IMG/VR virus record: IMGVR_UViG_2537561684_000007
Strand: one strand, 5' to 3'
Source: a virus
Taxonomy: Duplodnaviria; Heunggongvirae; Uroviricota; Caudoviricetes
Length of the DNA: 15,142 bases
Below the pieces are notes generated by a model that did no database searches, was not told the origin of the DNA, and saw only the letters and a list, made by a program, of their open reading frames with translations. The translations under genes and the position numbers were made by a program. Numbering within the stretch: the stretch's first letter is position 1; each line of letters opens with the position of its first letter. This document shows, in pieces, positions 1 through 15,142 of this stretch.

Positions 1-92
1 ATCTCAGTTAGTACCGCGGGAGTATTGGAATAGAGACTCATCCCTAGGTGATTTAGCACATTCAAATCAATTTTAATTTCGAAATCTGACAT
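1..92 (-). CDS. 5' end (first ~30 codons) of a cargo gene in the old/tin-equivalent slot; N-terminus resembles GHKL/Bergerat-fold ATPases; continues beyond the window start
   Basis: Minus-strand ATG at 92..90 preceded by AAGGAA 8 nt upstream. Translation MSDFEIKIDLNVLNHLGMSLYSNTPAVLTEI stays open to position 1. The LxHLxxSLYSNxxxxLxEI pattern resembles the HtpG/Hsp90-type N-terminal motif ([20 protein letters not shown], recalled). Lies in ~37% GC DNA next to cos. Too short for the supplied ORF track. Confidence 0.4.
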   Translation of the reverse strand, partial: MSDFEIKIDLNVLNHLGMSLYSNTPAVLTE

Positions 93-339
93 ATAGTCGT
101 TCCTTGCTGAGAGTTCATTTTAGTTTCATGCAATCAATAGCCACTTAGTGGTAAAGATAAAACCTTAAGATAACCAAAGCAAGTGTTCATTAGCGGCTTT
201 GTTTCATGACATGATGTGTGTCGCTTTTTGCATGAAACTGCATTTGTTTCTTATATCTGCTCTTTTTACATACTGCTAGTGTTGACATGGCTTTGACATG
301 GCTGTGCAACTGCATTAAAACCGCCCCATGAAGCGGGCG

Positions 340-358
340 GGCGAGGCGGGGAAAGCAC
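340..358. other. cos: P2-type cos site (19-nt cohesive end GGCGAGGCGGGGAAAGCAC)
   Basis: Exact match at 340..358 to the P2 cohesive-end sequence as I recall it; sits ~170 bp from the portal gene stop, as in P2. A GC hairpin (CCGCCC...GGGCGG, 321..339) lies directly to its left. Confidence 0.6.
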
Positions 359-500
359 TGCGCGCTGGCGGTGGTGCTGATTTTATTTTTTCAGCGTCTG
401 AGCGCGTCGTGATGGCGTTTAGATTGTTCGCCGGGGCGTTGGTGTGTCTGCGGGATGTTTTGTGCGGTGGTGAGCGTGTGAGGGCGTGATGACAGGGTGT

Positions 501-522
501 AAAAAAGCCGCCCGCAGGCGGC
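501..522 (-). terminator. Rho-independent terminator downstream of Q (minus strand)
   Basis: Perfect palindrome GCCGCC-CGCA-GGCGGC at 507..522 followed on the minus strand by a six-U tract (plus-strand A run 501..506), starting 5 nt after the Q stop codon (528..530). Confidence 0.7.
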
Positions 523-527
523 GATGT

Positions 528-1562
528 TCAGCCGTTGTCAGTGTCCAGTGAGTAGTTTTTAAAGCGGATGACCTCCTGACCGAGCCAGCCGTTTATCTCG
601 CGGATCCTGTCCTGTAACGGGATAAGTTCATTGCGGACAAAGACCTTTGCCACTTTCTCAATATCACCCAGCGACCCGACGTTCTCCGGCTTGCCACCCA
701 TCAACTGAAAGGGGATGCGGTGCGCGTCCAGCAGGTCTGCGGCACTGGCTTTTTTGATATTAAAAAAATCGTCCTTCGTCGCCACTTCACTGAGCGGGAT
801 AATTTTAATGCCGTCGGCTTTTCCCTGTGGGGCATAGAGAAACAGGTTTTTAAAGTTGTTGCGGCCTTTCGACTTGACCATGTTTTCGCGAAGCATTTCG
901 ATATCGTTGCGGTCCTGCACGGCATCGGTGACGTACATGATGTATCCGGCATGTGCGCCGTTTTCGTAATACTTGCGGCGGAACAGCGTGGCCGATTCAT
1001 TCAGCCAGGCAGAGTTAAGGGCGCTGAGATATTCCGGCAGACCGTACAGCTCCTGATTAATATCCGGCTCCAGCAGGTGAAACACGGAGCCGGGCGCGAA
1101 AGGTGTCGGCTCGTTGAAGGACGGCACCCACCAGTAAACATCCTCTTCCACGCCACGGCGGGTATATTTTGCCGGTGAGGTTTCCAGTCTGATGACCTTA
1201 CCGGTGGTGCTGTATCGCTTTTCCAGAAACGCATTACCGAACACCAGAAAATCCAGCACAAAGCGGTTGAAATCCTGCTGGGAAAGCCACGGATGCGGGA
1301 TAAATGTCGAGGCCAGAATATTACGTTTGACGTAAATCGGTGAGCTGTGATGCACGGCAGCACGCAGGCTTTTTGCCAGACCGGTAAAGCTGACCGGTGG
1401 CTCATACCATCTGCCGTTACTGATGCACTCGACGTAATCCAGAATGTCACGGCGGTCGAGTACCGGCACCGGCTCACCAAAGGTGAATGTCTCCATTTTC
1501 GGGGCGCTGGCGGTCATTGTTTTTGCCGCAGGTTGCGGTGTTTTCCCTTTTTTCTTGCTCAT
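528..1562 (-). CDS. Q: portal vertex protein (P2 gpQ-like)
   Basis: Intact 344-aa ORF, the same length as P2 Q; translation matches recalled P2 Q; ATG overlaps the stop of the upstream terminase gene (TGATG). Confidence 0.93.
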   Translation of the reverse strand: MSKKKGKTPQPAAKTMTASAPKMETFTFGEPVPVLDRRDILDYVECISNGRWYEPPVSFTGLAKSLRAAVHHSSPIYVKRNILASTFIPHPWLSQQDFNRFVLDFLVFGNAFLEKRYSTTGKVIRLETSPAKYTRRGVEEDVYWWVPSFNEPTPFAPGSVFHLLEPDINQELYGLPEYLSALNSAWLNESATLFRRKYYENGAHAGYIMYVTDAVQDRNDIEMLRENMVKSKGRNNFKNLFLYAPQGKADGIKIIPLSEVATKDDFFNIKKASAADLLDAHRIPFQLMGGKPENVGSLGDIEKVAKVFVRNELIPLQDRIREINGWLGQEVIRFKNYSLDTDNG

Positions 1563-3332
1563 CAGTAAAACTCCAGAATGGTGGATGTCAGCGGGGTGCT
1601 GATACCGGCGGTGAGTGGCTCATTTAACAGGGCGTGCATGGTTGCCCAGGCGAGGTCGGCGTGGCTGGCTTCCTCGCTGCGGCTGGCCTCATAGGTGGCG
1701 CTGCGTCCGCTGCTGGTATGGTCTTGCGGATAGCCATGAACGAGCTGGTGATGTCGGTGGCGCTGACGTCATATTCCAGACAGCCACGGCGAATAACGTC
1801 TTTTGCCTTGAGCACCATTGCGGTTTTCATTTCCGGCGTGTAGCGGATATCGCGCGCGGCGGGATAGAACGAGCGCACGAGCTGGAACACGCCGACACCG
1901 AGGCCGGTGGCATCAATACCGATGTATTCGACGTTGTATTTTTCGGTGAGTTTGCGGATGGATTCCGCCTGAGTGGCAAATCCATGCCTTTCCACTGGTG
2001 ACGCTCAAGTATTCTGAATTTGCCACCGGCCACCACCGGCGGTGCCAGTACCACGCATCCGGCGCTGTCGCCACGGTGTGACGGGTCGTAACCAATCCAT
2101 ACCGGACGTGAGCCGAACGGATTGGCGGCAAACGGCGCATAGTCTTCCCATTCTTCCAGCGTGTCGACCATGCAGCGTTGCAGCTCCTCAAACGGGAACA
2201 CCGATGCCTTGTCGTCAACAAATTCACACATGAACAGGTTTTTAAAATCGTCGGCGCTGTTTTCGCGTTTGAGCTGCTCAATGTCGAACAATGTGCAGCC
2301 GCCTTTCAGGGCGTCCTCAATGGTGACAATCTGCCGCCACTGGCCGTCCGCACAGAGAAGACCACCGGCAAGGGCGTTATGACTGACGTCGATTTCCACA
2401 CGTTCGGCGGCGCTGGCGCGTCCCCGGTTGAACAGTTCACCCGACCAGAACGGGTAGGCGTCGTGCGCCAGCGTGGACGGGGTGGAGAAATAGGTCGAGC
2501 GCAGGTGACTCTGTGAGGCCATACCTGATGCCACCTTACGCAGTACCTGAAAATTCGGGATCCAGAAAATCTCATCGACGTACAGGTCGCCGTTATGGCT
2601 CTGTGCGGTGTTGGAGTTGGTGCCGAGAAAAATCAGTTTTGCGCCGTTATTGCCCAGGACAATCGGGTCACCGGTCAGGTCAACGTCAACCAGCCGGGCA
2701 AAGGCGATGATGTATTCGCGGAACACATACGCCTGCGTTTTACTGGCCGACAGAAAAATCTGGTTATGACCGGTTTTCAGGGCGCGCAGCAGCGCCTCGC
2801 GGGAAAAATAAAACGTCGCGCCAATCTGGCGGGATTTCAGGATATCGCGGATGCGGTGCTCAAGCCCGGCGCGATACCAGCGCAACTGATATTCGAAAGA
2901 CTGCTCAAAGAAAATCTGCTCCAGCTTTTCGATGGCCTCGTCACTGAAAAAATTCTTTTTCGGTTTGCGACGCCCGCCTTTGTTGCGGTTAGCAACGTTC
3001 GGATTAAGGTCTGCCTCGTTGCCGGTCTGGCTGTAACGGTTGACCCGCGCCAGTCGTTCAATCTGGCGTCCGAGCAGGTCAATTTCCTTGAAGTCACCGC
3101 CGGTTTTCTGCGGTTTGATGATGAGCTGGGTCAGCCGCGCTTCCAGACTCATTTCGACACGGCTGATGGGAGCAACGCTGTCCCAGCCGTCGCGCTGTTT
3201 CCAGCTCTGCACCGTCGGGCGCTTCATCTGCAACATGGCGGCAATCTGCGGCACGGAAAATCCCTGCCAGTACAGCAGCGCCGCCTGACGACGCGGGTCG
3301 TGTAAAAGAGTGGTGTCTGTGGTGATGGTCAT
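1562..3332 (-). pseudogene. P: terminase large (ATPase) subunit, P2 gpP-like; interrupted by at least two frameshifts as read
   Basis: ATG at 3332 (MTITTD...) with GAGG upstream. N-terminal ~450 aa lie in the 511-aa ORF 1827..3362; the frame breaks near 1980 (read GATTTGCC where GATTTTGCC would keep HQWKGMD-FATQAES in frame). The next part (FATQAESIRKLTEKYNVEYIG...) is in ORF 1624..1995, and the likely true C-terminus (...LLNEPLTAGISTPLTSTILEFY) is in a third frame ending at TGA 1564..1562. Total span ~1770 nt, matching a ~590-aa P2 P. Confidence 0.85.
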
Positions 3333-3505
3333 GAATACCTCGCCGTGATGAATACACGGCAAGGCTACTGAGTCGCGCCCCGCGATTCGCTAAGGTGCTG
3401 TTGTGTCAGTGATAAGCCATCCGGGACTGATGGCGGAGGATGCGCATCGTCGGGAAACTGATGCCGACATGTGACTCCTCTAATCACTATTCAGGACTCC
3501 TGACA
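3333..3505. promoter_or_regulatory. divergent intergenic region between P (leftward) and O (rightward); expected location of Ogr-dependent late promoters
   Basis: 173-bp non-coding gap between divergently oriented late operons; in P2 this gap carries the PP and PO late promoters. I could not find a clean TGT-N12-ACA activator site by eye. Confidence 0.4.
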
Positions 3506-4359
3506 ATGGCAAAAAAAGTCTCAAAATTCTTTCGTATCGGCGTTGAGGGTGACACCTGTGACGGGCGTGTCATCAGTGCGCAGGATATTCAGGAAATGGC
3601 CGAAACCTTTGACCCGCGAGTCTATGGTTGCCGCATTAACCTGGAACATCTGCGCGGCATCCTGCCTGACGGTATTTTTAAGCGTTATGGCGATGTGGCC
3701 GAACTGAAGGCCGAAAAGATTGACGATGATTCGGCGCTGAAAGGCAAATGGGCGCTGTTTGCGAAAATCACCCCGACCGATGACCTTATCGCGATGAACA
3801 AGGCCGCGCAGAAGGTCTACACCTCAATGGAAATTCAGCCGAACTTTGCCAACACCGGCAAATGTTATCTGGTGGGGCTGGCCGTCACCGATGACCCGGC
3901 AAGCCTCGGCACGGAATACCTAGAATTCTGCCGCACGGCAAAACACAACCCCCTGAACCGCTTCAAATTAAGCCCTGAAAACCTGATTTCAGTGGCAACG
4001 CCCGTTGAGCTGGAATTTGAAGACCTGCCTGAAACCGTGTTCACCGCCCTGACCGAAAAGGTGAATCCATTTTTGGCCGCAAACAGGCCAGCGATGACGC
4101 CCGTCTGAATGACGTGCATGAAGCGGTGACCGCTGTTGCTGAACATGTGCAGGAAAAACTGAGCGCCACTGAGCAGCGCCTCGCTGAGATGGAAACCGCT
4201 TTTTCCGCACTTAAGCAGGATGTGACTGACAGGGCGGATGAAACCAGCCAGGCATTCACCCGCCTGAAAAACAGTCTCGACCACACCGAAAGTCTGACCC
4301 AGCAGCGCCGCAGCAAGGCCACCGGTGGTGGCGGTGACGCCCTGATGACGAACTGCTGA
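3506..4359 (+). pseudogene. O: capsid scaffolding protein (P2 gpO-like); one frameshift as read
   Basis: MAKKVSKFFRIGVEGDTCDGRV... from ATG 3506 (inside ORF 3440..4108). Frame breaks near 4064 (GTGAATCC, where GTGAAATCC would continue as KVKSIFGRKQASDDARLNDVHEAV). C-terminal part is ORF 4114..4359. Span 854 nt versus 855 for a 284-aa protein. Confidence 0.85.
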
Positions 4360-4417
4360 CCGGCGTCAGTCAGTCCGGGAAAACCTTCACGATTAACCCT
4401 TAATTTCAGGAAAAACT

Positions 4418-5491
4418 ATGCGCCAGGAAACCCGCTTTAAATTTAATGCCTACCTGTCCCGTGTTGCCGAACTGAACGGCATCGACGCCGGTGATGTGTC
4501 GAAAAAATTCACCGTTGAACCGTCGGTCACCCAGACCCTGATGAACACCATGCAGGAGTCCTCTGACTTTCTGACCCGCATCAACATTGTGCCGGTCAGC
4601 GAAATGAAAGGGGAAAAAATTGGTATCGGTGTCACCGGCTCCATCGCCAGCACCACCGACACCGCCGGTGGCACCGAGCGTCAGCCGAAGGACTTCTCGA
4701 AGCTGGCGTCTAACAAGTACGAATGCGACCAGATTAACTTCGATTTTTATATCCGCTACAAAACGCTTGACCTGTGGGCGCGTTATCAGGATTTCCAGCT
4801 CCGTATCCGTAACGCCATTATCAAACGCCAGTCCCTTGATTTCATCATGGCCGGTTTTAACGGCGTGAAGCGTGCCGAAACCTCTGACCGCAGCAGCAAT
4901 CCGATGCTACAGGATGTGGCGGTCGGCTGGCTGCAGAAATACCGCAATGAAGCCCCGGCGCGCGTGATGAGCAAGGTCACTGACGAGGAAGGGCACACGA
5001 CCTCTGAGGTCATCCGCGTGGGTAAGGGCGGTGATTATGCCAGCCTCGATGCACTGGTGATGGATGCGACCAACAACCTGATTGAGCCGTGGTATCAGGA
5101 AGACCCTGACCTTGTGGTGATTGTGGGGCGTCAGCTACTGGCGGACAAGTATTTCCCCATCGTTAACAAGGAGCAGGACAACAGCGAGATGCTGGCCGCT
5201 GACGTTATCATCAGCCAGAAACGCATCGGCAACCTGCCGGCGGTACGCGTCCCGTACTTCCCGGCGGATGCGATGCTCATCACGAAGCTGGAAAACCTGT
5301 CCATCTACTACATGGATGACAGCCATCGCCGCGTGATTGAGGAAAACCCGAAACTCGACCGCGTGGAGAACTACGAGTCAATGAACATTGATTACGTGGT
5401 GGAGGACTACGCCGCCGGTTGTCTGGTGGAAAAAATTAAGGTCGGTGATTTCTCCACACCGGCTAAGGCGACCGCAGAGCCGGGAGCGTAA
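4418..5491 (+). CDS. N: major capsid protein (P2 gpN-like)
   Basis: Intact 357-aa ORF with AGGA upstream; length and sequence match recalled P2 N. Confidence 0.93.
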   Translation: MRQETRFKFNAYLSRVAELNGIDAGDVSKKFTVEPSVTQTLMNTMQESSDFLTRINIVPVSEMKGEKIGIGVTGSIASTTDTAGGTERQPKDFSKLASNKYECDQINFDFYIRYKTLDLWARYQDFQLRIRNAIIKRQSLDFIMAGFNGVKRAETSDRSSNPMLQDVAVGWLQKYRNEAPARVMSKVTDEEGHTTSEVIRVGKGGDYASLDALVMDATNNLIEPWYQEDPDLVVIVGRQLLADKYFPIVNKEQDNSEMLAADVIISQKRIGNLPAVRVPYFPADAMLITKLENLSIYYMDDSHRRVIEENPKLDRVENYESMNIDYVVEDYAAGCLVEKIKVGDFSTPAKATAEPGA

Positions 5492-5494
5492 CCG

Positions 5495-6228
5495 ATGACG
5501 AGTCCCGCACAGCGCCACATGATGCGGGTCTCGGCAGCGATGACCGCGCAGCGGGAAGCCGCCCCGCTGCGACATGCAACTGTCTATGAGCAGATGCTGG
5601 TAAGCTCGCCGCAGACCAGCGCACACTGAAAGCGATTTATTCAAAAGAGCTGAAGGCCGCGAAAAAACGCGAACTGCTGCCGTTCTGGTTGCCGTGGGTG
5701 AACGGCGTGCTGGAGCAGGGCAAAGGTGCACAGGATGACATTCTGATGACGGTCATGCTGTGGCGTCTGGATACCGGCGATATTGCCGGTGCGCTGGAGA
5801 TTGCCCGTTATGCCCTGAAGTACGGTCTGACCATGCCGGGAAACACCGCCGCACCCCGCCGTACATGTTCACCGAGGAGGTGGCGCTGCGGCCATGCGGC
5901 TCACGCTGCCGGTGATCGTGGATCCCGCCTGCTGACGGACACCCTTGAACTGACTGCCACGGCAGACATGCCTGATGAAGTGCGCGCAAAGCTGCACAAA
6001 ATCACCGGTCTGTTTCTGCGTGACCGGTGATGCCGCGGTGCGCTGGCGCACCTGCAACGTGCGACACAGCTCGACTGTCAGGCAGGCGTCAAAAAAGAGA
6101 TTGAACGACTGGAGCGGGAGCTGAAACCGAAGCCGGAGCCGCAACCCAAAGCGGCCACCCGTGCCACGCGTAAGACCCGGAGTGCGACACCGGCAAAACG
6201 TGGACGCCCGAAAAAGAAAACCAGTTAA
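5495..6228 (+). pseudogene. M: terminase small (endonuclease) subunit (P2 gpM-like); at least three frameshifts as read
   Basis: ATG 5495 (MTSPAQRHMMRVSAAMTAQREAAPLRHATVYEQMLV...), GGAG upstream. Frame breaks at ~5603 (TGGTAAGCTC where TGGTAAAGCTC would give KLAADQRTLKAIY). Middle is in ORF 5689..6030 with an internal garbled stretch; C-terminus (...KRGRPKKKTS) is in another frame ending TAA 6226..6228. Span is not a multiple of 3. Confidence 0.8.
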
Positions 6229-6327
6229 CAACCGAATGCGCCCCGCGCCAGGGCGGCACGCCGGTCAGTGAGGGTGAATCACCTGACACTGCACCGGCGT
6301 CCACCGCCCGACTTTTCTGAGGTAGTC

Positions 6328-6827
6328 ATGATGACGCTGATTATTCCGCGAAAGGAGGCTCCCGTGTCCGGTGAGGGTACGGTGGTCATCCCGCAACCGG
6401 CAGGCGACGAGCCGGTGATTAAAAACACGTTCTTTTTTCCCGATATCGACCCGAAGCGCGTCCGGGAACGTATGCGCCTTGAGCAGACCGTCGCCCCGCC
6501 CGTCTGCGTGAGGCCATCAAGTCAGGCATGGCGAACGAATGCGGAGCTGTACGAGTACCGCGAACAGAAAATTGCCGCCGGTTTTACGCGTCTGGCGACG
6601 TCCCGGCGGACGAATCGACGGTGAAAGCATCAAGGTTTTTTACTACGAGCGCGCCGTGTGTGCGATGGCGACCGCGTCGCTTTATGAGCGTTATCGCGGC
6701 GTGGATGCCAGTGCGAAAGGCGACAAAAGGCCGACAGCATGACAGCACCATTGATGATGTGGCGGGATATGCGCTGGGCGGTGGCGCGCATCCAGGACAA
6801 GCCGCGCTGCATCGTGAGTCAAATCTG
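6328..6827 (+). pseudogene. L: head completion/stabilisation protein (P2 gpL-like); several frameshifts as read
   Basis: ATG 6328 (MMTLIIPRKEAPVSGEGTVVIPQPAGDEPVIKNTFFFPDIDPKRVRERMRLEQTVAP...) inside ORF 6268..6624. Later segments in other frames (ESIKVFYYERAVCAMATASLYERYRGVDASAKGDK in ORF 6539..6742; ...CIVSQI ending TGA 6825..6827, overlapping the X start as TGATG). Confidence 0.8.
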
Positions 6828-7031
6828 ATGAAGACCTTTGCGCTACAGGGCGACACGCTCGACGCCATTTGTGTCCGGTATTACGGGCGCACTGAGGGCG
6901 TGGTTGAGACCGTGCTCGCCGCAAATCCGGGACTGGCTGAACTGGGTGCGGTGCTGCCACACGGCACCGCCGTCGAACTGCCCGACGTTCAGACCGCGCC
7001 CGTGGCTGAAACTGTCAATCTGTGGGAGTAA
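6828..7031 (+). CDS. X: tail protein X (P2 gpX-like)
   Basis: 67-aa intact reading frame MKTFALQGDTLDAICVRYYGRTEGVVETVLAANPGLAELGAVLPHGTAVELPDVQTAPVAETVNLWE; it is the 3' end of the longer artefactual ORF 6528..7031. Confidence 0.85.
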   Translation: MKTFALQGDTLDAICVRYYGRTEGVVETVLAANPGLAELGAVLPHGTAVELPDVQTAPVAETVNLWE

Positions 7032-7034
7032 CGC

Positions 7035-7316
7035 ATGACAGCAGAAGAAAAAAGCGTCCTGTCGCTTTTCATGATTGGGGTGCTGATTGTTGTCGGCAAG
7101 GTGCTTGCCGGTGGTGAACCCATCACCCCGCGTCTGTTTATCGGACGCATGTTGCTCGGTGGTTTTGTCTCGATGGTTGCCGGTGTTGTTCTGGTGCAGT
7201 TTCCTGACCTGTCACTGCCTGCGGTGTGCGGCATCGGCTCCATGCTGGGTATCGCCGGTTATCAGGTGATTGAGATTGCCATTCAGCGCCGCTTTAAGGG
7301 CAGGGGGAAACCGTAA
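7035..7316 (+). CDS. Y: holin (P2 gpY-like)
   Basis: Intact 93-aa ORF, hydrophobic, same length as P2 Y; stop overlaps K start (TAATG). Confidence 0.9.
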   Translation: MTAEEKSVLSLFMIGVLIVVGKVLAGGEPITPRLFIGRMLLGGFVSMVAGVVLVQFPDLSLPAVCGIGSMLGIAGYQVIEIAIQRRFKGRGKP

Positions 7317-7811
7317 TGCCGGTAATTAACACGCATCAGAATATCGCCGCCTTTCTCGACATGCTGGCGGTGTCCGAAGGGACGGCGAATCATCCGCTGA
7401 CGAAAAACCGGGGCTATGACGTGATAGTCACCGGACTGGACGGAAAGCCGGAAATTTTCACCGACTACAGTGACCACCCGTTCGCGCATGGCCGACCGGC
7501 GAAGGTGTTTAACCGTCGCGGTGAAAAATCCACGGCTTCCGGTCGCTATCAGCAGCTTTACCTGTTCTGGCCGCATTACCGCAAACAGCTTGCCCTGCCG
7601 GATTTCAGTCCGTTGTCACAGGACAGACTCGCCATTCAGTTGATCCGCGAACGCGGTGCACTGGATGACATCCGGGCGGGACGCATTGAGCGCGCCATTT
7701 CACGCTGTCGCAATATCTGGGCGTCCCTGCCGGGTGCCGGTTACGGTCAGCGTGAGCATTCACTGGAAAAACTGGTCACCGTCTGGCGTACCGCGGGGCG
7801 TACCGGCTTAA
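7316..7811 (+). pseudogene. K: endolysin (P2 gpK-like); frameshift near the 3' end as read
   Basis: MPVINTHQNIAAFLDMLAVSEGTANHPLTKNRGYDVIVTGLDGKPEIF... from ATG 7316. The reading frame runs through into lysA (ORF 7316..8041); the probable native stop is TAA 7809..7811 in a neighbouring frame (…TAGGVPA). Span 496 nt versus 498 for a 165-aa protein. Confidence 0.8.
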
Positions 7812-7825
7812 ACGGAGTAAACACC

Positions 7826-8241
7826 ATGAAGAAATTATCCCTTTCACTGATGCTGAACGTGTCGCTGGCGCTGATGCTGGCACTGTCCCTGATTTACCCG
7901 CAGAGCGTGGCCGTCAGTTTTGTCGCCACCTGGGCGATTCTGGGACGGTTATCTGTGTGGTTGCCGGTGGTGTCGGCGTGTATGCCACGAGTATGTACTG
8001 AACGCTACGGGCGGGAGCTGCCCCGGAATCGCTGGCCGTGAAGATTGTCACGCGCTGTTTTTGCAGCCGGTGCCGTGGCGCAGCGGCGGGCTCTGGTGTG
8101 ATGGTGGCGACATTTATCTCGCTGGTCGCTGCCGGGTGGATTTTTACCGCGCTGATTTATCTCGTGGCATCGGTGTTCTTCCGGCTGATACGTACGGCCT
8201 GCTGTCAGCGTTTTGAGGGGCGGGAACCATGTCAAAGCTGA
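7826..8241 (+). pseudogene. lysA: lysis timing membrane protein LysA-like; frameshifted as read
   Basis: ATG 7826 with GGAG 8 nt upstream; MKKLSLSLMLNVSLALMLALSLIYPQSVAV... Hydrophobic segments are split across three frames (ORFs 7316..8041, 7920..8216, 8038..8241); last fragment ends TGA 8239..8241. Confidence 0.65.
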
Positions 8242-8680
8242 TGATTGTGCTGGTGTGTTGTTATCCTGGCGGTGGCGGCTGTTTCTGGGAACAAAAAGCC
8301 AGCCTGCGCGCCTCGCTGGACAGGGCGAACAAGTCGCCAGCGGGCAGCAGACGACCATCACCATGCTGAAAAATCAGCTTCATGTTGCCCTCACCAGGGC
8401 AGACAAAAACGAGTGGCGCAGGTGGCACTGCGTCAGGAACTGGAAACGCCGCGAAGCGTGAAGCCAGCGCGAGAAAACCATCACGAGTTACTAATGAAAA
8501 CGAGATTTCCGCCGCTGGTATGGCGCTGACCTGCCTGATGCTGTGCGCCGGTTGCACCAGCGTCCGGCCTGCACCGACGCCAGTGATTGTCGCCAACGCC
8601 TGCCCGAAAGTGAGTCTTTGCCCGATGCCGGGCAGGACCCAGACGAACGGCGATTTAAGTGCCGATATCCGGCAGCTTGA
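8229..8680 (+). pseudogene. lysB: Rz-like i-spanin LysB; several frameshifts as read, 3' end uncertain
   Basis: ATG 8229 (MSKLMIVLV...); recognisable segments ASLRASLDRAN, ASGQQTTITMLKNQLHVALTRADKNE, VALRQELE, AAKREASARK are spread over three frames (ORFs 8213..8461, 8245..8529, 8382..8780). End coordinate is inferred from the expected ~141-aa length and the frame relationship to lysC. Confidence 0.55.
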
Positions 8681-8780
8681 GAACGCGCTGGCGCGCTGTG
8701 CCAGCCAGGTAAAAATGATTAAACACTGTCAGGACGAAAACGATGCTCAAACCCGACAGCCTGCGCAGGGCGCTGACTGA
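8520..8780 (+). CDS. lysC: Rz1-like o-spanin lipoprotein LysC (overlaps the 3' part of lysB in another frame)
   Basis: ATG 8520; MALTCLMLCAGC... has a lipobox (LCAGC) followed by a Pro-rich stretch (SVRPAPTPVIVANACPKVSLCPMPG); lies within ORF 8382..8780. Confidence 0.5.
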   Translation: MALTCLMLCAGCTSVRPAPTPVIVANACPKVSLCPMPGRTQTNGDLSADIRQLENALARCASQVKMIKHCQDENDAQTRQPAQGAD

Positions 8781-9199
8781 TGCCGTCACGGTGCTGAAAA
8801 CACCGAATGCTGCGGATATTCGTGGATACGGGAGTATTGCCTCCACCTGGCGCGTCGTTGTCATTCGAAAAGCGTTACACGCTCAATGTCATTGTGACCG
8901 ACTTTACCGGTGATTTTGACCTGCTCATCGTGCCGGTGCTGGCGTGGCTGCGGGTAAATCAGCCCGACATCATGACCACCGACGAGGCAGAAAAAGGGCT
9001 TCACGTTTTATGCAGACATCAACAATGACAGCAGCTTTGATATCAGATCAGCCTGATGCTGACCGAGCGCACGCTGGTCAGTGAGGTGGACGGCGCGCTG
9101 CATGTGAAGAATATCCCGGAACCTCCGCCGCCGGAGCCGGTCACCCGCCCGATGGAGCTGTATATCAATGGCGAACTCGTGAGTAAGTGGGATGAATGA
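8743..9199 (+). pseudogene. R: tail completion protein (P2 gpR-like); frameshifted as read
   Basis: ATG 8743 with AGGA upstream (MLKPDSLRRALTDAVTVLK...). Middle part is in ORF 8807..9028 (SFEKRYTLNVIVTDFTGDFDLLIVPVLAWLR); C-terminus (...PMELYINGELVSKWDE) ends TGA 9197..9199, overlapping the S start. Confidence 0.75.
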
Positions 9200-9644
9200 G
9201 TTTAAGCGTTTTGAAGACCGGCTGACCGGACTTATTGAATCGCTGTCACCGTCAGGGCGTCGGCGACTGAGCGCCGAACTGGCGAAACGTCTGCGGCAGA
9301 GTCAGCAGCGCCGGGTGATGGCACAGAAAGCCCCGGACGGCACACCCTACGCACCACGCCAGCAGCAGAGCGCCAGAAAAAAGACCGGTCGCGTTAAGCG
9401 AAAAATGTTTGCGAAACTTATCACCAGTCGTTTTTTGCATATCCGCGCCAGCCCTGAACAGGCATCAATGGAGTTTTACGGCGGGAAGTCACCGAAAATA
9501 GCCAGTGTGCATCAGTTCGGTCTGTCGGAAGAAACCCGGAAAGACGGTAAGAAAATTGATTATCCGGCGCGTCCTCTGCTCGGCTTTACCGGTGAGGATG
9601 TGCAGATGATTGAAGAGATTATCCTGGCTCACCTCGACCGTTAG
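9192..9644 (+). CDS. S: tail completion protein (P2 gpS-like)
   Basis: Intact 150-aa ORF, same length as P2 S; translation matches recalled P2 S. Confidence 0.9.
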   Translation: MNEFKRFEDRLTGLIESLSPSGRRRLSAELAKRLRQSQQRRVMAQKAPDGTPYAPRQQQSARKKTGRVKRKMFAKLITSRFLHIRASPEQASMEFYGGKSPKIASVHQFGLSEETRKDGKKIDYPARPLLGFTGEDVQMIEEIILAHLDR

Positions 9645-9710
9645 TTGTGCCATTCCCGACACCTCATCGTTACATTGCCGCCGGTATGACCCGGCGGCAT
9701 CCTTCCCGTT
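9645..9710 (+). promoter_or_regulatory. S-V intergenic region; expected position of the late promoter for the V-W-J-I-H-G operon
   Basis: 66-bp gap. Contains a partial dyad TGT-N10-ACA (9646..9661) and an 8-bp GC hairpin GCCGCCGG/CCGGCGGC (9677..9698). In P2 a late promoter lies in front of V. Confidence 0.3.
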
Positions 9711-10333
9711 ATGAACACTCTCGCAAATATCCAGGAACTCGCGCGCGCACTGCGCAACATGATCCGCACCGGCCTTGTCGTCGAAACCAACCTTAAAGCC
9801 GGTCGCTGCCGTGTGCAGACCGGCGGCATGTGCACCGACTGGCTTCAGTGGCTGACTCGTGCCGGGCGTTCGCGCACTGGTGGGCACCTTCCGTGGGGGA
9901 CAGGTGCTGATTCTGGCCGTGGGCGGTGAACTGACACGGCGTTCGTTCTGCCGGGGATTTATTCCGGGATAACCCCGCGCCGTCTGCGTCGGCGGATGCC
10001 CTGCATATCCGTTTCCCTGACGGGGCGGTGATTGATATGAACCGAAACCAGCGCACTCACGGTAAGCGGAATTAAAACGGCCAGCGTGACGGCTTCTGAT
10101 TCTGTTACTGCCACGGTGCCGGTGGTCAGGTGAAAGCATCAACCCGCGTACCCTGGACACACCGGAGGTGGTTGCACCAACAGGCTGATTACGGCACGCT
10201 GGAAGTGCAGAAGGGCGGGACGATGCGCGGCAACATTGAACACACCGGCGGTGAACTCTCATCAAACGGTAAGGTACTGCATACCCATAAACACCCCGGC
10301 GACAGCGGCGGCACAACCGGGAGCCCTCTATGA
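9711..10333 (+). pseudogene. V: baseplate spike/assembly protein (P2 gpV-like); frameshifted as read
   Basis: N-terminus in ORF 9711..9929 (MNTLANIQELARALRNMIRTGLVVETNLKAGRCRVQTGGMCTDWLQWLTRAGRSRT), C-terminus in ORF 10130..10333 (...TLEVQKGGTMRGNIEHTGGELSSNGKVLHTHKHPGDSGGTTGSPL); the middle is out of frame. Confidence 0.8.
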
Positions 10334-10677
10334 CAGCGCGTTATCTCGGAATGAATCGCAGTGATGGCCTGACGGTCACTGACCTTGAGCATATCAGCCA
10401 GAGTATCGGCGATATCCTGCGCACACCGGTCGGCTCACGGGTGATGCGTCGTGATTACGGCTCGTTGCTGGCGTCAATGATTGACCAGCCGCAGACCCCG
10501 GCGCTTGAGTTGCAGATTAAGGTCGCCTGTTACATGGCGGTGCTGAAATGGGAACCCCGCGTCACGCTGTCATCTGTCACCACGGCGCGCAGTTTTGACG
10601 GGCGAATGACGGTCACGTTAACCGGCCAGCACAACGACACCGGCCAGCCACTTTCATTAACCATCCCTGTGAGTTGA
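10330..10677 (+). CDS. W: baseplate wedge protein (P2 gpW-like)
   Basis: Intact 115-aa ORF, same length as P2 W; ATGA overlap with V stop. Confidence 0.9.
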   Translation: MTARYLGMNRSDGLTVTDLEHISQSIGDILRTPVGSRVMRRDYGSLLASMIDQPQTPALELQIKVACYMAVLKWEPRVTLSSVTTARSFDGRMTVTLTGQHNDTGQPLSLTIPVS

Positions 10678-10681
10678 AACC

Positions 10682-11581
10682 ATGCCGATTATCGACCTGA
10701 ACCAGCTACCCGCACCGGATGTGGTCGAGGAGCTGGACTTTGAAACCATTCTTGCCGAACGCAAGGCGACACTGATTTCTCTTTACCCGGAAGACCAGCA
10801 GGAGGCGGTCGCCCGTACCCTGACGCTGGAATCTGAGCCTCTCGCCAAACTGCTGGAGGAAAATGCTTATCGTGAGCTTATCTGGCGTCAGCGTGTGAAT
10901 GAGGCCGCACGGGCGGTGATGCTGGCCTGTGCCGCCGGTAATGACCTTGATGTGATTGGTGCCAATTACAACACCACGCGCCTGATTATTACTCCGGCAG
11001 ATGATTCGACCATCCGCCGACACCGGCAGTGATGGAATCTGACACGATTATCGTCTGCGTATTCAGCAGGCGTTTGAGGGCTTAAGCGTCGCCGGGTCGG
11101 TGGGTGCTTATCAGTATCATGGTCGCAGTGCCGACGGGCGTGTCGCGGATATTCTGTACCAGTCCGTCTCCGGCCTGCGTCACCATCTCGTGCTGTCACG
11201 TGAAAATAACGGTGTGCATCCGAAGACTGCTGGCGGGTGCGTAACGCCCTTAATGGCGAGGACGTCAGGCCGGTGGCCGACCGCGTGACCGTGCAGTCTG
11301 CCGCCATTGTTGAATACCAGATAAACGCCACGCTTTACCTTTACCCTGGTCCCGAAAGCGAACCCATCCGCGCTGCCGCCGTGAAAAAACTGGAAGCGTA
11401 TATCACGGCACAGCACCGGCTGGGGCGTGACATCCGTCTGTCTGCCATTTATGCCGCTTTGCATGTGGAAGGTGTGCAGCGTGTCGAACTGGCTGCACCA
11501 CTGGCCGACATCGTGCTCAACAGTACGCAGGCGTCTTTCTGTACCGAATACCGCGTCGTGACCGGAGGCTCGGATGAGTGA
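10682..11581 (+). pseudogene. J: baseplate protein (P2 gpJ-like); several frameshifts as read
   Basis: N-terminus in ORF 10682..11032 (MPIIDLNQLPAPDVVEELDFETILAERKATLISLYPEDQQEAVARTLTLESEPLAKLLEENAYRELIWRQRVNEAARAVMLACAAGNDLDVIGANYNTTRLIITPADDSTI), middle fragment in ORF 11100..11288, C-terminus in ORF 11237..11581. Confidence 0.8.
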
Positions 11582-12104
11582 TTCGCGACTGCTGCCGACC
11601 GGCTCATCACCGCTTGAGGTCGCCGCCGCAAAAGCCTGTGCGGAAATTGAAAAAACGCCGGTCAGTATTCGTGAGCTGTGGAACCCGGATACCTGTCCGG
11701 CAAATCTGCTGCCGTGGCTGGCGTGGGCGTTTTCGGTCGACAGGTGGGATGAAAAGTGGCCGGAAGCGACAAAACGCGCCGTTATCCGCGATGCCTATTT
11801 CATCCACTGTCATAAAGGCACAATAGGTGCAATCCGGCGTGTGGTGGAGCCGCTCGGCTATCTCATCAACGTGACGGAGTGGTGGGAAAACAGTGACCCG
11901 CCCGGCACCTTCCGGCTTGATATTGGTGTACTGGAAAGTGGCATCACAGAGGCAATGTATCAGGAAATGGAACGGCTGATTGCTGATGCCAAACCTGCAA
12001 GCCGCCACCTTATTGGCCTGAACATTACCCGGGACATTCCCGGCTACCTGTTCGCCGGTGGTGTGGCTTACGACGGCGATGTAATTACGGTTTATCCCGG
12101 ATAA
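11574..12104 (+). CDS. I: baseplate/tail fibre attachment protein (P2 gpI-like)
   Basis: Intact 176-aa ORF, same length as P2 I; overlaps J stop. Confidence 0.9.
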   Translation: MSDSRLLPTGSSPLEVAAAKACAEIEKTPVSIRELWNPDTCPANLLPWLAWAFSVDRWDEKWPEATKRAVIRDAYFIHCHKGTIGAIRRVVEPLGYLINVTEWWENSDPPGTFRLDIGVLESGITEAMYQEMERLIADAKPASRHLIGLNITRDIPGYLFAGGVAYDGDVITVYPG

Positions 12105-12114
12105 GTGAGGAATA

Positions 12115-14400
12115 ATGAGCACAAAATTCAGAACCGTTATCACCACTGCCGGTGCAGCAAAGCTGGCAGCGGCAACCGCACCGGGAGGGCGGAAGGTCAA
12201 TATTACCACGATGGCCGTCGGGGATGGCGGTGGTAAATTGCCTGTCCCGGATGCCGGACAGACCGGGCTTATCCACGAAGTCTGGCGACATGCGCTGAAC
12301 AAAATCAGCCAGGACAAACGAAACAGTAATTATATTATCGCAGAGCTGGTTATTCCGCCGGAGGTGGGCGGTTTCTGGATGCGTGACTTGGCCTGTACGA
12401 TGATGCGGGAACTAATTGCCGTGGCGAACATGGCCGAAAGTTATAAGCCAGCCTTGCCGAAGGCTCAGGGCGTTCGCAGACCTGCGCATGGTCATCATCG
12501 TCAGCAGTGTGGCCTCAGTGGGCTGACCATTGACACCACAACGGTGATGGCACGCAGGATTACGTTGATGACAAAATTGCAGACATGAACAGTCACGACG
12601 TCACCCGACGCCTCGCTGACCGCAAAAGGTTTTACTCAGTTAAGCATGCGACCAACAGCACGTCTGAAACACTGGCCGCAACGCCGAAAGCGGTAAAGGC
12701 CGCGTATGACTTGCTAACGGGAAATAACGCCAGGAGCCACCAAGCGCGAAAAGGCCTTGTCCAGCTCAGTAGGCCACCAACAGCACGTCTGAAACGCTGC
12801 GCAACCCAAAGCGGTAAAGGCAGCATATGACCTGCTAACGGGAAATAACGCACAGGAGCCACCACGCGCGAAAAGGTCTTGTCCAGCTCAGTAGCGCACC
12901 AACAGCGATTCTGAAACGCTTGCGGCAACGCCAAAGGCGGTTAAGACAGCGTATGACCTTGCTAACGGGAAATACACTGCACAGGAGCCACCACGCGCGA
13001 AAGGTCTTGTCAGCTCAGTAGCGCCACCAACAGGATTCTGAAACGCTGGCGCAACATCAAAAGCGGTGAAGTCTGCCTATGACAATGCTGAAAAACGTCT
13101 TCAGAAAGATCAGAACGGTGCGGATATTCCGGGAAAGGATACCTTCACGAAAAATATCGGTGCCTGTCGTGCTTATAGCGGCGCTTTGAGCACTGAAGCC
13201 GGAAACTGGACAACCGCTCAGTTTATTGAATGGCTGGATTCCCGTGGTGCATTTAATCATCCGTACTGGATGTGCAAAGGCTCCTGGTCATATGCAAATA
13301 ACAAAATCATTACGGATACCGGATGTGGTGATATCCACCTGGCTGGTTGTGTCGTCGAGGTCATGGGAACTAAATCTGCAATCACTATCCGAGTGACCAC
13401 GCCGACAACATCAAGCGGTGGCGGTACAACCAGCGCGCAATTCACTTACATTAATCATGGGGACGGCTACTCCCCCGGCTGGCGTCGTGACTGGAATCGT
13501 CAGGGCGACGCAATGACCGGAACGATTAATCAGGATGGCGGAAGCCAGAATGCCTATATGTCTACGGCCTTATGTTCAGGCACCAGAGGCGGCAAAAAAT
13601 ATCTCAGAAAGTTTCGTGGTGGAGAAGGAGACACTATCTGGCATGAAACAGTACAGGGCGGGGTAATTCGCTGGGCGACAGGAAACTATGACGCTCAGGA
13701 AGAATTATCACTCAGCTCCGCTTATGGTCTCCGTTCAAGAGGTGAGATTACATCACTCAGTGCTAATGGTCTGCGCATTGCTTATGGCAATTATGGATTC
13801 TTTATCAGGAATGATGGCGGCAGCACATATTTAATGCTGACGGCCTCTGGCGATAAATTTGGGACATGGAACGGTTTAAGGCCGCTGACTATCAATAACG
13901 CTAATGGCGGAGTATCAATGGGGCATGGCCTGAGTGTTACTGGTGATATTGCCTCAAGTACCAAAGTACGTGCCGGTAGCGGGAAAAAATTCACGGTCAG
14001 CAGCAGTAATACATCCACGAAGGAAGCCGCATTCAATTTGTGGGGAAACTCAAGTCGTCCGGTGGTGGCTGAATTAGGTGATGATGCAGGCTGGCATTTT
14101 TACAGTCAGAGAAATACAGATAACAGCATCACTTTTGCTGTTAACGGGCAGGTATCACCATCTAACTATGGCAACTTTGATTCACGCTATGTCCGGGATA
14201 TCCGGCTTGGTGGTGCTGCCACATACAAACCTGCGAACAATGGCATGACATGGACACATCAGGCACCGTCCGGGTGTGTATATTCCGGCATTATTGTTCA
14301 GGATACCGGCTCAAACTCTGCCGATAACATTGGTGGCATATATTACAGACCGGTGCAGAAATACATTAACGGGACATGGTATAACGTGGCGCAGGTATAA
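12115..14400 (+). pseudogene. H: tail fibre protein (P2 gpH-like), mosaic; 5' third frameshifted as read, 3' 444 codons intact
   Basis: N-terminus in ORF 12115..12588 (MSTKFRTVITTAGAAKLAAATAPGGRKVNITTMAVGDGGGKLPVPDAGQTGLIHEVWRHALNKISQDKRNSNYIIAELVIPPEVGGFWMR...). 12628..13060 is a tandem repeat block with frame-breaking length differences. ORF 13066..14400 is intact and ends ...YRPVQKYINGTWYNVAQV. Total ~2.29 kb, longer than the ~2.0 kb expected for P2 H. Confidence 0.8.
12628..13060 (+). repeat. about 3.5 tandem copies of a ~125-nt coding repeat inside H (SSATNSTSETLAATPKAVKAAYDL-type tail fibre repeat)
   Basis: Unit starts at roughly 12628, 12753, 12875 and 13003 (spacings 125, 122, 128 nt); each unit contains variants of ACCAACAGCACGTCTGAAAC...GCGGTAAAGGC...TATGAC. 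Confidence 0.8.
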
Positions 14401-14403
14401 TTT

Positions 14404-14931
14404 ATGCAGCATTTGATAAATATAACGGTGGGTAATCCAAAAACGGTTGAACAATATCAATTGACAAAGGATTTTGATGTTGTCTGGTTTTTTACAGAAG
14501 ATGGTAAGAACTGGTACGAAGAACAAAAGTATTTTGCTGATGACACGATAAAAATAGCGTACGACAAAGATAATATCATCCGCTATGTGGAAAAGGATGT
14601 GACAGCTATCAGACCGGATGGATTAAGTGTGGTTGAAGTGGCGGATATTACTGCTAACCGACGGGCGGATATTTCAGGGGGCTGGATGTTTAAGGACGGC
14701 AAAGTGATTAAACGCATTTATACGGCAGATGAATTGCGGCGGCAGGCAGAAATTCGGAAAGTCAGACTTCTTGCAGATGCTGAATCCGTGATTTTGCCGC
14801 TGGAGCGCGCTGTCAGGCTGAACATGGCAACAGATGAGGAGCGTAGCCGACTGGAAGCATGGGAGCGTTACAGCGTTCTGGTCAGTCGTGTGGATCCTGC
14901 AAATCCTGAATGGCCGGAAATGCCGCAATAA
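14404..14931 (+). CDS. G: tail fibre assembly chaperone (P2 gpG/Tfa-like)
   Basis: Intact 175-aa ORF directly after H; AT-rich like the 3' end of H. Confidence 0.88.
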
Positions 14932-14965
14932 GTTGTATGAGTTCTGGTGTGAGCTTACACATCTA

Positions 14966-15007
14966 TGGCACAGAGTAAAGCCTAATCTGACAGTTCGCTC
15001 TGTGCCA
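14966..15007. repeat. perfect 10-bp inverted repeat TGGCACAGAG-N22-CTCTGTGCCA just downstream of G
   Basis: Arms at 14966..14975 and 14998..15007; no T tract follows, so not a typical intrinsic terminator. Lies in the ~38% GC non-coding tail of the window. Confidence 0.6.
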
Positions 15008-15142
15008 GAAACAGACGTCACTTATATATTTCTGTATTAATCAATGAGGAAAGATTCAATTCTCTATAATGGAGGTTGCGTCCACTGTTTTCTCTAAGCA
15101 GACCAAGTTCCCTTAACGAAAAATTTAGTGTCAGAAACTAAT

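What the first reader, a model, noticed from the sequence alone, without database searches (positions are those of the whole stretch)
1562..13060. Frameshifts are clustered in specific late genes rather than spread evenly
P, O, M, L, K, lysA, lysB, R, V, J and the 5' part of H need about 25 frame changes to reconstruct P2-like proteins. The two junctions I traced base by base are single-base deletions in homopolymers (position ~1980 in P, ~4064 in O). Q, N, X, Y, S, W, I, G and the last 1335 nt of H (about 5.8 kb in total) have none. Uniform random sequencing error would be unlikely to leave the three longest genes untouched. Possible explanations are patchy read coverage or polishing, a decaying prophage partly repaired by recombination with an intact relative, or homopolymer-specific basecalling errors.
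Basis: partly seen in the sequence, partly recalled or inferred. Interest (0 to 1): 0.5.

Follow-up and report, generated by a model that had tools for sequence, protein, structure and literature searches.

The report
Assembly artefact: dropped SNP columns in prophage
The clustered "frameshifts" in this P2-like prophage are almost certainly not real mutations: the draft assembly appears to have merged two nearly identical prophages and left out every base at which they differ.

Summary
The window is the whole contig AQCB01000052.1 of E. coli p0305293.6. This is an ETEC colony from Dhaka, sequenced on Illumina HiSeq at more than 200x and assembled with Celera Assembler. It carries the P2-type late genes Q to G.

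Against the closest intact prophage there are 109 deletion events (119 bases), not about 25, and no genuine insertions. The clustering is real. There are no events in Q, N, X, Y, S, W, I, G or the 3' part of H (5,790 nt; P = 4e-24 if events were spread uniformly).

The deletions are not homopolymer errors: 68% hit single, non-repeated bases. They share the codon-position bias of natural SNPs (69% at third positions). They replace substitutions rather than adding to them. 104 of 109 fall on sites where indel-free relatives carry a substitution (null 19-31%; p = 8e-46).

Taking two real haplotypes and deleting their discordant columns reproduces the window exactly in places. The closest complete genome carries two such prophages, 96-98% identical. 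Sibling colonies from the same patient show different deletion sets.

Verdict: this is a consensus artefact of a collapsed two-copy repeat. It has low biological interest but is useful as a data-quality warning.

The parts
1..15142 (.). Whole contig AQCB01000052.1 of GCA_000359075.1 (E. coli p0305293.6). Interpreted as the collapsed consensus of two P2-like prophage late regions.
   Evidence: The exact-protein look-up returns this contig with the same length. GenBank proteins ENH57883-ENH57906 equal the translations of the frameshifted ORFs. Homology to prophage copy A of strain 602354 runs from 305 to 15007, so the contig ends 135-305 nt past the shared region.
528..5491 (.). Q(-) 528-1562, P(-) 1562-3332, O 3506-4359 and N 4418-5491. 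This block is almost free of deletions. Three isolated dropped columns lie at 1718, 1978 and 4064.
   Evidence: Sites 1978 and 4064 are A/G SNP columns in relatives. Site 1718 is not polymorphic in the panel used.
5602..6037 (+). Ten single-base deletions in M (terminase small subunit, 5495-6228).
   Evidence: Site 5602 is a C/T SNP split 13:13 among relatives. Sibling L005 deletes or substitutes the same sites.
6498..6758 (+). Eight deletion events (9 bases) in L (6328-6828).
   Evidence: Stripping the discordant columns of L005 x L010 reproduces window 6471-6782 to edit distance 1, against 9 for the best single haplotype.
7795..8098 (+). Twelve deletions in the 3' end of K and in lysA.
   Evidence: L005 x L045 stripped gives edit distance 2, against 12 for the best single haplotype.
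8255..8641 (+). Sixteen deletion events (19 bases) in lysB/lysC.
   Evidence: The A-type 61-mer (found in 36 IMG/VR contigs) and the B'-type 61-mer (found in 19) differ at 9 columns. Removing those columns gives a 52-mer found exactly at window 8250.
8802..9047 (+). Nine deletion events (11 bases) in R.
   Evidence: Four deleted bases at 8802-8807 correspond to four L005 substitutions. The best pair gives edit distance 4, against 12 for a single haplotype.
9857..10192 (+). Eleven deletion events (13 bases) in V.
   Evidence: The best pair gives edit distance 10, against 15. Three sites (9878, 10150, 10192) are not polymorphic in the panel.
11014..11236 (+). Eight deletion events (9 bases) in J.
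   Evidence: L014 x L045 stripped gives edit distance 3, against 9.
12387..13050 (+). Thirty-two deletion events in the 5' 950 nt of H. This stretch includes a 132-nt x 3.5 tandem repeat whose period shrinks to about 122 nt.
   Evidence: Window 12368-12678 is reproduced exactly (edit distance 0) by L060 x L002 with 10 discordant columns dropped. Within the repeat, the deleted columns match A/B differences and columns that vary between units.
13066..14931 (+). The 3' part of H (13066-14400) and G (14404-14931). There are no deletions here, but many substitutions against copy A.
   Evidence: One search shows 40 and 18 substitutions and no events. This is read as a single haplotype, or as copies too divergent to be merged (inference).

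Best explanation
The frameshifts are an assembly artefact, not mutations.

The sequenced ETEC strain most likely carries two P2-like prophages whose late regions form a mosaic. Some segments are (near-)identical and others differ by 3-5%. Celera Assembler merged the 100-nt Illumina reads from both copies into one contig. At each column where the copies disagree, the consensus emitted no base, so each inter-copy SNP became a 1-base deletion and adjacent SNPs became 2-3-base deletions. Segments where the copies are identical, or too different to be merged, came out clean. That produces the gene-by-gene patchiness.

Shown here:
- The deleted sites are SNP sites.
- Pairs of real haplotypes reproduce the window once their discordant columns are removed.
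- The deletions are in the deposited record.
- Sibling assemblies differ in their deletion sets.

Inferred:
- Both haplotypes reside in one genome. This rests on the closest complete genomes.
- The base is lost at the assembler's consensus gap call. One possible route is that the two alleles are aligned as staggered gap columns which are then called as gaps.
For: (1) All 110 indels against the closest intact prophage are deletions. 43 relatives have 0-2 deleted bases each.

(2) The codon-position spectrum equals that of the substitutions: 69% at third positions, 86% when placement ambiguity is allowed. Alternative alleles at these sites show a transition:transversion ratio of 58:19.

(3) Deletions replace substitutions: 2.9 substitutions per kb in deletion-rich bins against 14.5 per kb in deletion-free bins.

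(4) 104 of 109 events lie on sites substituted in at least one of 43 indel-free relatives. The null is 19% for any site and 31% for third-codon sites; binomial p = 8e-46.

(5) E. coli 602354, the closest complete genome and also a Bangladesh ETEC, has two P2-like prophages that align without gaps at 97.7% and 96.3%. 50 of 119 deleted bases fall exactly on their differences, where 3.4 are expected.

(6) The A-type and B'-type 61-mers both exist intact in many genomes. Deleting their 9 discordant columns gives the window's sequence at 8250 exactly.

(7) Pair search: the stripped consensus of two real haplotypes matches the window with edit distances of 0, 1, 2, 3 and 4 in five clusters. The best single haplotypes give 9-12.

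(8) In L002 8660-9160, all 21 window deletions correspond to substitutions in sibling L005.

(9) Other colonies of the same patient series are p0305293.13.3 and .5 (= L003, L004, L005). They have 57, 33 and 47 deleted bases, only partly shared with the window. Colony .5 has intact K, LysA and R where the window has more than 30 deletions.

(10) Methods for this strain series: Illumina HiSeq2000, more than 200x, Celera Assembler. P0305293.1 is listed as a GSCID ETEC isolate from Bangladesh, 2011.

(11) Only these drafts, out of about 65 related loci, show the signature.
Against: No reads, coverage or mate-pair data could be inspected, so the doubled depth and 50:50 allele columns expected of a collapse are not shown.

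No single pair of public haplotypes reproduces the whole contig. Four clusters are only partly reproduced, with edit distances of 6-21. Five events (1718, 6026, 9878, 10150, 10192) are at sites not polymorphic in the panel.

Copy B of strain 602354 explains only 42-56% of deleted bases, so the second copy in the sequenced strain is a different mosaic and was not observed directly. No A-type contig from a sibling assembly was found in IMG/VR.

I found no published description of Celera Assembler deleting discordant columns. P0305293 is not named in the main text of the methods paper and its Table S1 was not available.
Confidence: 0.92

Rival explanations
1. The cause is the same merged haplotypes, but the base was lost at a different step. 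The consensus carried ambiguity symbols (IUPAC codes, N or gap characters) at discordant columns, and a post-assembly or submission script stripped them.
For: This predicts exactly the same sequence pattern as the main explanation. The window and the sibling contigs contain only A, C, G and T.
Against: Stripping after deposition is excluded. The submitter's GenBank proteins (ENH57891.1, ENH57883.1, ENH57903.1 and others) equal the translations of the deleted sequence. Stripping before deposition cannot be told apart from an assembler gap call with these tools.
Confidence: 0.1
2. The DNA preparation was mixed. The two haplotypes come from two co-cultured strains or from a free-phage contaminant, not from two prophages in one chromosome.
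For: The paper on this strain series reports mixed ETEC populations in 2 of 12 patients. Heterogeneous samples also give correlated SNPs (PMC2397507).
Against: At least seven separately picked and sequenced colonies (.2.3.5.6.8.11.13) show the effect in the same prophage. The related complete ETEC genomes 602354, 120899, 103605, 204446, 504237 and TW10722 each hold 2-3 copies of this lysis module. The two mixed patients named in the paper are others, P0299917 and P0299438.
Confidence: 0.05
3. This is a genuinely decaying, pseudogenised prophage. The 119 bases are truly missing from the chromosome, perhaps with intact segments restored by recombination.
For: Cryptic P2-like prophages are common. 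The deletions are in the deposited record.
Against: Real decay would not place 95% of indels on known SNP sites with a third-codon bias. It would not remove the substitutions from the same stretches. It would not differ by dozens of indels between colonies of one patient series. There are no insertions and no larger deletions.
Confidence: 0.02
4. These are platform basecalling errors (homopolymer undercalls) or low-coverage, unpolished stretches.
Against: The deletions are depleted in runs of 3 or more (8% against 15% background). The platform is Illumina at more than 200x. The same context is deleted in each H repeat unit, and the sites coincide with SNPs.
Confidence: 0.01

Closest known systems
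Collapsed-repeat mis-assembly with correlated SNPs (Phillippy, Schatz & Pop 2008, Genome Biol 9:R55; PMC2397507)
   Same: Reads from two near-identical copies are stacked into one contig. The differences between copies appear at fixed, correlated columns. The contig ends close to where the copies stop being similar.
   Different: The classic description has the consensus picking one allele, so the error is hidden. Here the discordant column is omitted, which turns each SNP into a frameshifting 1-base deletion. Read depth and mate-pair signatures could not be checked.
Peduovirus (P2-like) late gene region, e.g. fiAA91-ss NC_022750.1 and the two prophages of E. coli 602354
   Same: The gene order is the same, cos-Q-P-O-N-M-L-X-Y-K-lysA-lysB/C-R-S-V-W-J-I-H-G. 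Nucleotide identity is 96-98%.
   Different: 119 bases are missing at SNP sites. As a result 11 of the 20 genes are broken in the record.
Homopolymer indel errors of 454, Ion Torrent or nanopore assemblies
   Same: These are single-base deletions that break reading frames in a draft genome.
   Different: They are not enriched in homopolymers, they came from an Illumina platform, and the sites are SNP positions.

Membership tests
Collapsed two-copy repeat mis-assembly | Two or more near-identical copies of the region exist in the genome. | tested here: inconclusive
   This is shown only by proxy. The closest complete genome (602354) has copy A at 4.99 Mb and copy B at 2.015 Mb, 96-98% identical and gapless. 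Five other related ETEC genomes have 2-3 places each. The sequenced strain itself has no finished genome.
Collapsed two-copy repeat mis-assembly | Consensus anomalies coincide with the positions where the copies differ. | tested here: met
   50 of 119 bases fall exactly on 602354 A/B differences, against 3.4 expected. 104 of 109 events are on SNP sites, p = 8e-46. The stripped consensus of real haplotype pairs reproduces the window with edit distances of 0-4 in five clusters.
Collapsed two-copy repeat mis-assembly | About double read depth and biallelic read columns. | not testable with these tools
   No reads or coverage data are available here.
Collapsed two-copy repeat mis-assembly | Independent assemblies of the same clone give different results. 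| tested here: met
   p0305293.13.3 and .5 have 57, 33 and 47 deleted bases, and share 39 of 91, 30 of 34 and 44 of 116 of the window's deleted bases. Colony .5 is intact in K, lysA and R.
Genuine prophage decay (pseudogenes) | Indels are independent of codon position and of population SNP sites, are accompanied by substitutions, and are shared by clonal isolates. | tested here: not met
   69-86% of deletions are at third positions. 95% are at SNP sites. Substitutions are depleted five-fold where deletions occur. Sibling colonies differ.
Homopolymer sequencing error | Indels are enriched in runs of 3 or more identical bases. | tested here: not met
   8% of single-base deletions are in runs of 3 or more, against 15% of background bases. 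68% are in runs of 1.
Peduovirus (P2-like) late region | P2 gene order and cos position, and close DNA identity to classified Peduovirus genomes. | tested here: met
   There is 95-97% identity over 87-96% of the window to many Peduovirus records. The annotated order Q to G is the same.

The most novel reading that the evidence does not exclude
The deletions are physically present in the chromosome. They arose biologically when recombination between two resident P2-like prophages formed heteroduplex DNA, and a mismatch-processing activity removed the mismatched nucleotide at each site, leaving a 1-base deletion at every inter-copy SNP. The differences between colonies would then reflect ongoing, independent conversion events.
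Probability: 0.01. Interest if true: 0.8.

Novelty: not a real feature. Interest (0 to 1): 0.1.

Why it matters
Biologically it does not matter much. The prophage or prophages are probably intact, ordinary P2-like elements.

It matters for data quality. The artefact broke 11 late genes in the record, and the spurious fragments are now in GenBank, RefSeq, UniRef and IMG/VR. Examples are ENH57883-ENH57906, WP_001661073.1, WP_001670483.1 and WP_001669485.1, together with IMG/VR UViGs from sibling assemblies.

Anyone counting pseudogenes, calling prophages "cryptic" or "degraded", or building protein families from this strain series would be misled. Other colonies of p0305293 are affected, and one artefact ORF also appears in strain 2770900.

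The signature is easy to screen for. It consists of deletions only, outside homopolymers, at third-codon SNP sites, with substitutions locally depleted.

Tried and rejected
- An exact 39-mer spanning four deletions was sought in the GTDB representative genomes and gave no match.
- A 56-mer specific to the window's lysB deletions was sought in IMG/VR and gave no match. The window itself is not in IMG/VR; only siblings are.
- I searched papers for the WGS accession AQCB and the assembly accession and found nothing. Table S1 of the methods paper is not held. So the link from P0305293 to the methods rests on the strain-name series and on PMC4309559.
- I looked for an A-type contig from a sibling assembly in IMG/VR, to show both haplotypes in one strain. 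None was found; the siblings carry only B' there.
- Copy B of strain 602354 as the second parent explains only 42-56% of deleted bases. The real second copy must be a different mosaic.
- The pair search did not reproduce the H tandem-repeat zone (edit distance 21 against 23), because few haplotypes align there without gaps. A column-by-column comparison of the repeat units was used for that zone.
- Other loci with several "deleted" bases (L012, L015, L016, L022, L037 and others) turned out to be recurrent alignment compensations in divergent stretches, not the artefact.
- A literature search for a documented Celera Assembler behaviour of this kind found nothing specific.
- I considered programmed frameshifting and rejected it, because all intact relatives read these genes in one frame.
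Full report
**What the window is.** The 15,142-base window is 95-98% identical to many Peduovirus (P2-like) phages and prophages. It has the canonical order cos, Q(-), P(-), O, N, M, L, X, Y, K, lysA, lysB/lysC, R, S, V, W, J, I, H, G.

An exact-protein look-up shows that it is the complete contig AQCB01000052.1 of NCBI assembly GCA_000359075.1. GenBank names the strain Escherichia coli p0305293.6. P0305293.1 is listed as a 2011 Bangladesh cholera-like ETEC isolate sequenced at GSCID/IGS (PMC4309559).

The paper describing this multi-colony-per-patient ETEC series states Illumina HiSeq2000 paired-end reads, more than 200x coverage, and assembly with Celera Assembler (PMC4462620). P0305293 is not named in that paper's main text and its Table S1 was not available. 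The link to those methods is therefore strong but indirect.

**Checking the observation.** I aligned the window to the closest intact prophage, E. coli 602354 copy A (locus L002), which is 98.0% identical over window 305-15007.

- The alignment shows 110 indel events, every one a deletion in the window: 101 of one base and 9 of two or three bases. The single apparent insertion is a compensated pair at 13686/13689.
- Events per gene are P 2, O 1, M 10, L 8, K 2, lysA 10, lysB 16, R 9, V 11, J 8 and the 5' part of H 32.
- Q, N, X, Y, S, W, I, G and the 3' 1,335 nt of H have none.

The probability of 5,790 deletion-free bases under a uniform model is 3.6e-24, and the dispersion index is 6.5.

Homopolymers are not the context. 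68% of single-base deletions hit a base with no identical neighbour (background 56%). Only 8% lie in runs of three or more (background 15%).

**What the deletions really are.** Four independent properties identify the deleted positions as sites of natural polymorphism between P2-like lineages.

1. Their codon-position spectrum matches the substitutions in the same alignment: 69% at third positions, 86% when placement ambiguity is allowed, against 69% for substitutions. The alternative alleles seen in relatives at these sites show a transition:transversion ratio of 58:19.
2. Deletions and substitutions are mutually exclusive along the contig. There are 2.9 substitutions per kb in deletion-rich bins against 14.5 per kb in deletion-free bins. 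Deletions plus substitutions in the rich bins total 31 per kb, a normal divergence between P2 mosaics.
3. Against 43 relatives that themselves have 0-2 deleted bases, 104 of 109 events fall on a site where at least one relative has a substitution. The null expectation is 19% for any site and 31% for third-codon sites; binomial p = 8e-46.

**Reconstruction test.** If the contig is a merger of two haplotypes with discordant columns omitted, then real haplotype pairs should regenerate it. They do.

- The A-type 61-mer at the start of lysB occurs intact in 36 IMG/VR contigs and the B'-type in 19. They differ at 9 columns, and removing those columns yields a 52-mer found exactly at window 8250.
- I searched all pairs among about 65 fetched loci. 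The stripped consensus matches the window with edit distance 0 for window 12368-12678, where 10 discordant columns equal 10 deleted bases.
- The distances are 1 for 6471-6782, 2 for 7772-8130, 3 for 10997-11258 and 4 for 8781-9070. The best single haplotype is 9-12 edits away in each case.
- Four other clusters are only partly reproduced (edit distances 6-21). I attribute this to limited haplotype sampling and, in H, to a tandem repeat.
- In that repeat the unit is 132 nt x 3.5 in intact relatives and shrinks to about 122 nt in the window. There the deleted columns line up with A-versus-B differences and with columns that vary between units.

**Where the second haplotype comes from.** The closest complete genome, ETEC 602354 from Bangladesh, carries two P2-like prophages. 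Copy A is at 4.99 Mb and copy B at 2.015 Mb. Their late regions align without a single gap at 97.7% and 96.3% identity. Fifty of the 119 deleted bases coincide exactly with A/B differences, where 3.4 would be expected. Five other related ETEC genomes also hold two or three copies of this lysis module. The second copy in the sequenced strain is evidently a somewhat different mosaic, because the window keeps the A allele at many 602354 A/B sites.

**Sibling assemblies.** Three IMG/VR contigs sharing the window's deletion-bearing H sequence come from other colonies of the same patient series. L003 is p0305293.13, L004 is p0305293.3 and L005 is p0305293.5. The same artefactual ORFs also occur in colonies .2.8 and .11.

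Each sibling has its own set of single-base deletions (57, 33 and 47 bases), only partly shared with the window, and 88-97% of them are again at SNP sites. Where a sibling keeps a base at a window-deleted site, it carries the alternative allele about half the time: 37 of 72 for L005, against a 1.6% background. In L002 8660-9160, all 21 window deletions correspond one-to-one to L005 substitutions. Colony .5 has full-length K, LysA and R where the window has more than 30 deletions.

The source paper reports clonal populations in 10 of 12 patients and names two other patients as the exceptions. Dozens of real indel differences within one prophage between such colonies are not credible. Run-to-run variation of an assembler is.

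**Where the base is lost.** The deletions are in the deposited record. The submitter's proteins ENH57883.1, ENH57884.1, ENH57891.1, ENH57895.1, ENH57903.1 and ENH57906.1 are exact translations of the frameshifted ORFs. Later database processing is therefore excluded.

Two possibilities remain that I cannot separate, and I found no publication describing either. The assembler's consensus may have called a gap at discordant columns, for instance because the two alleles were aligned as staggered gap columns. Alternatively, a pre-submission step may have stripped ambiguity symbols. This step is inferred.

**Comparison with what is known.** Repeat collapse with correlated SNP columns is a textbook mis-assembly signature (PMC2397507). 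The unusual detail here is that the discordant column is omitted, not resolved to one allele. That turns silent SNPs into frameshifts. The read-depth and mate-pair hallmarks of a collapse could not be tested.

Genuine prophage decay, homopolymer error, patchy coverage and programmed frameshifting were each tested against the sequence and failed (and 38-44).

**Verdict.** I put about 0.92 confidence on a consensus artefact of merged prophage haplotypes. Most of the remaining probability goes to variants of the same idea (ambiguity symbols stripped, or a mixed template), and about 2% to real decay.

Interest is low (0.1). The main value is as a warning, because the spurious protein fragments have entered GenBank, RefSeq, UniRef and IMG/VR. 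The decisive test is to map the strain's own reads back to the contig. I expect double depth, two phased alleles at each junction, and no read supporting a deletion.

Noticed in passing
window 1-399 (partial gene at 3-92, minus strand): The left end, upstream of cos, is 98% identical to Escherichia phage PhiR44_1. There the adjacent minus-strand gene is annotated ParaMORC3, an anti-phage defence gene in the variable P2 hotspot next to cos. The contig cuts this gene after its last 30 codons. Copies A and B of strain 602354 carry different cargo at this position: an AAA ATPase in A, and Panacea-domain plus DUF2975 genes in B.
   Followed up: partly
window 12651-13083; L002 13443-13898: The tail-fibre gene H contains a 132-nt (44-codon) tandem repeat of 3.5 units at 89% identity in intact relatives. 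H length varies widely among relatives, with annotated genes of 2,079-2,760 nt.
   Followed up: partly
L007 11577-12362; also L008, L009, L013: A 786-nt minus-strand gene of unknown function sits between S and V in copy B of strain 602354, in strains JNU and MEI2BO-21, and in Yersinia phage vB_YpM_46. It is absent from the window and from copy A.
   Followed up: no
window 12115-12588, 8520-8780 and other ORFs: Artefactual protein fragments from this and sibling contigs have RefSeq or UniRef identifiers: WP_001661073.1, WP_001670483.1 (named LysC, 86 aa where relatives have 87) and WP_001669485.1. One 52-aa fragment is also annotated in E. coli 2770900, another strain of the same sequencing project. 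The artefact may therefore extend beyond patient P0305293.
   Followed up: partly
window 9489-10316, minus strand: A 275-codon ORF antisense to S and V is listed as a called gene in the public gene set for this contig. It has no Pfam hit and is probably a gene-calling by-product of the broken V frame.
   Followed up: no
L031 and L045 (IMGVR_UViG_2861048470_000003 and _000007): One IMG isolate genome yields two separate P2-like contigs. One is identical to copy A of strain 602354 over 10.9 kb and the other differs from it by 202 substitutions. This is another example of two resolved P2-like prophages in one genome of this lineage.
   Followed up: no
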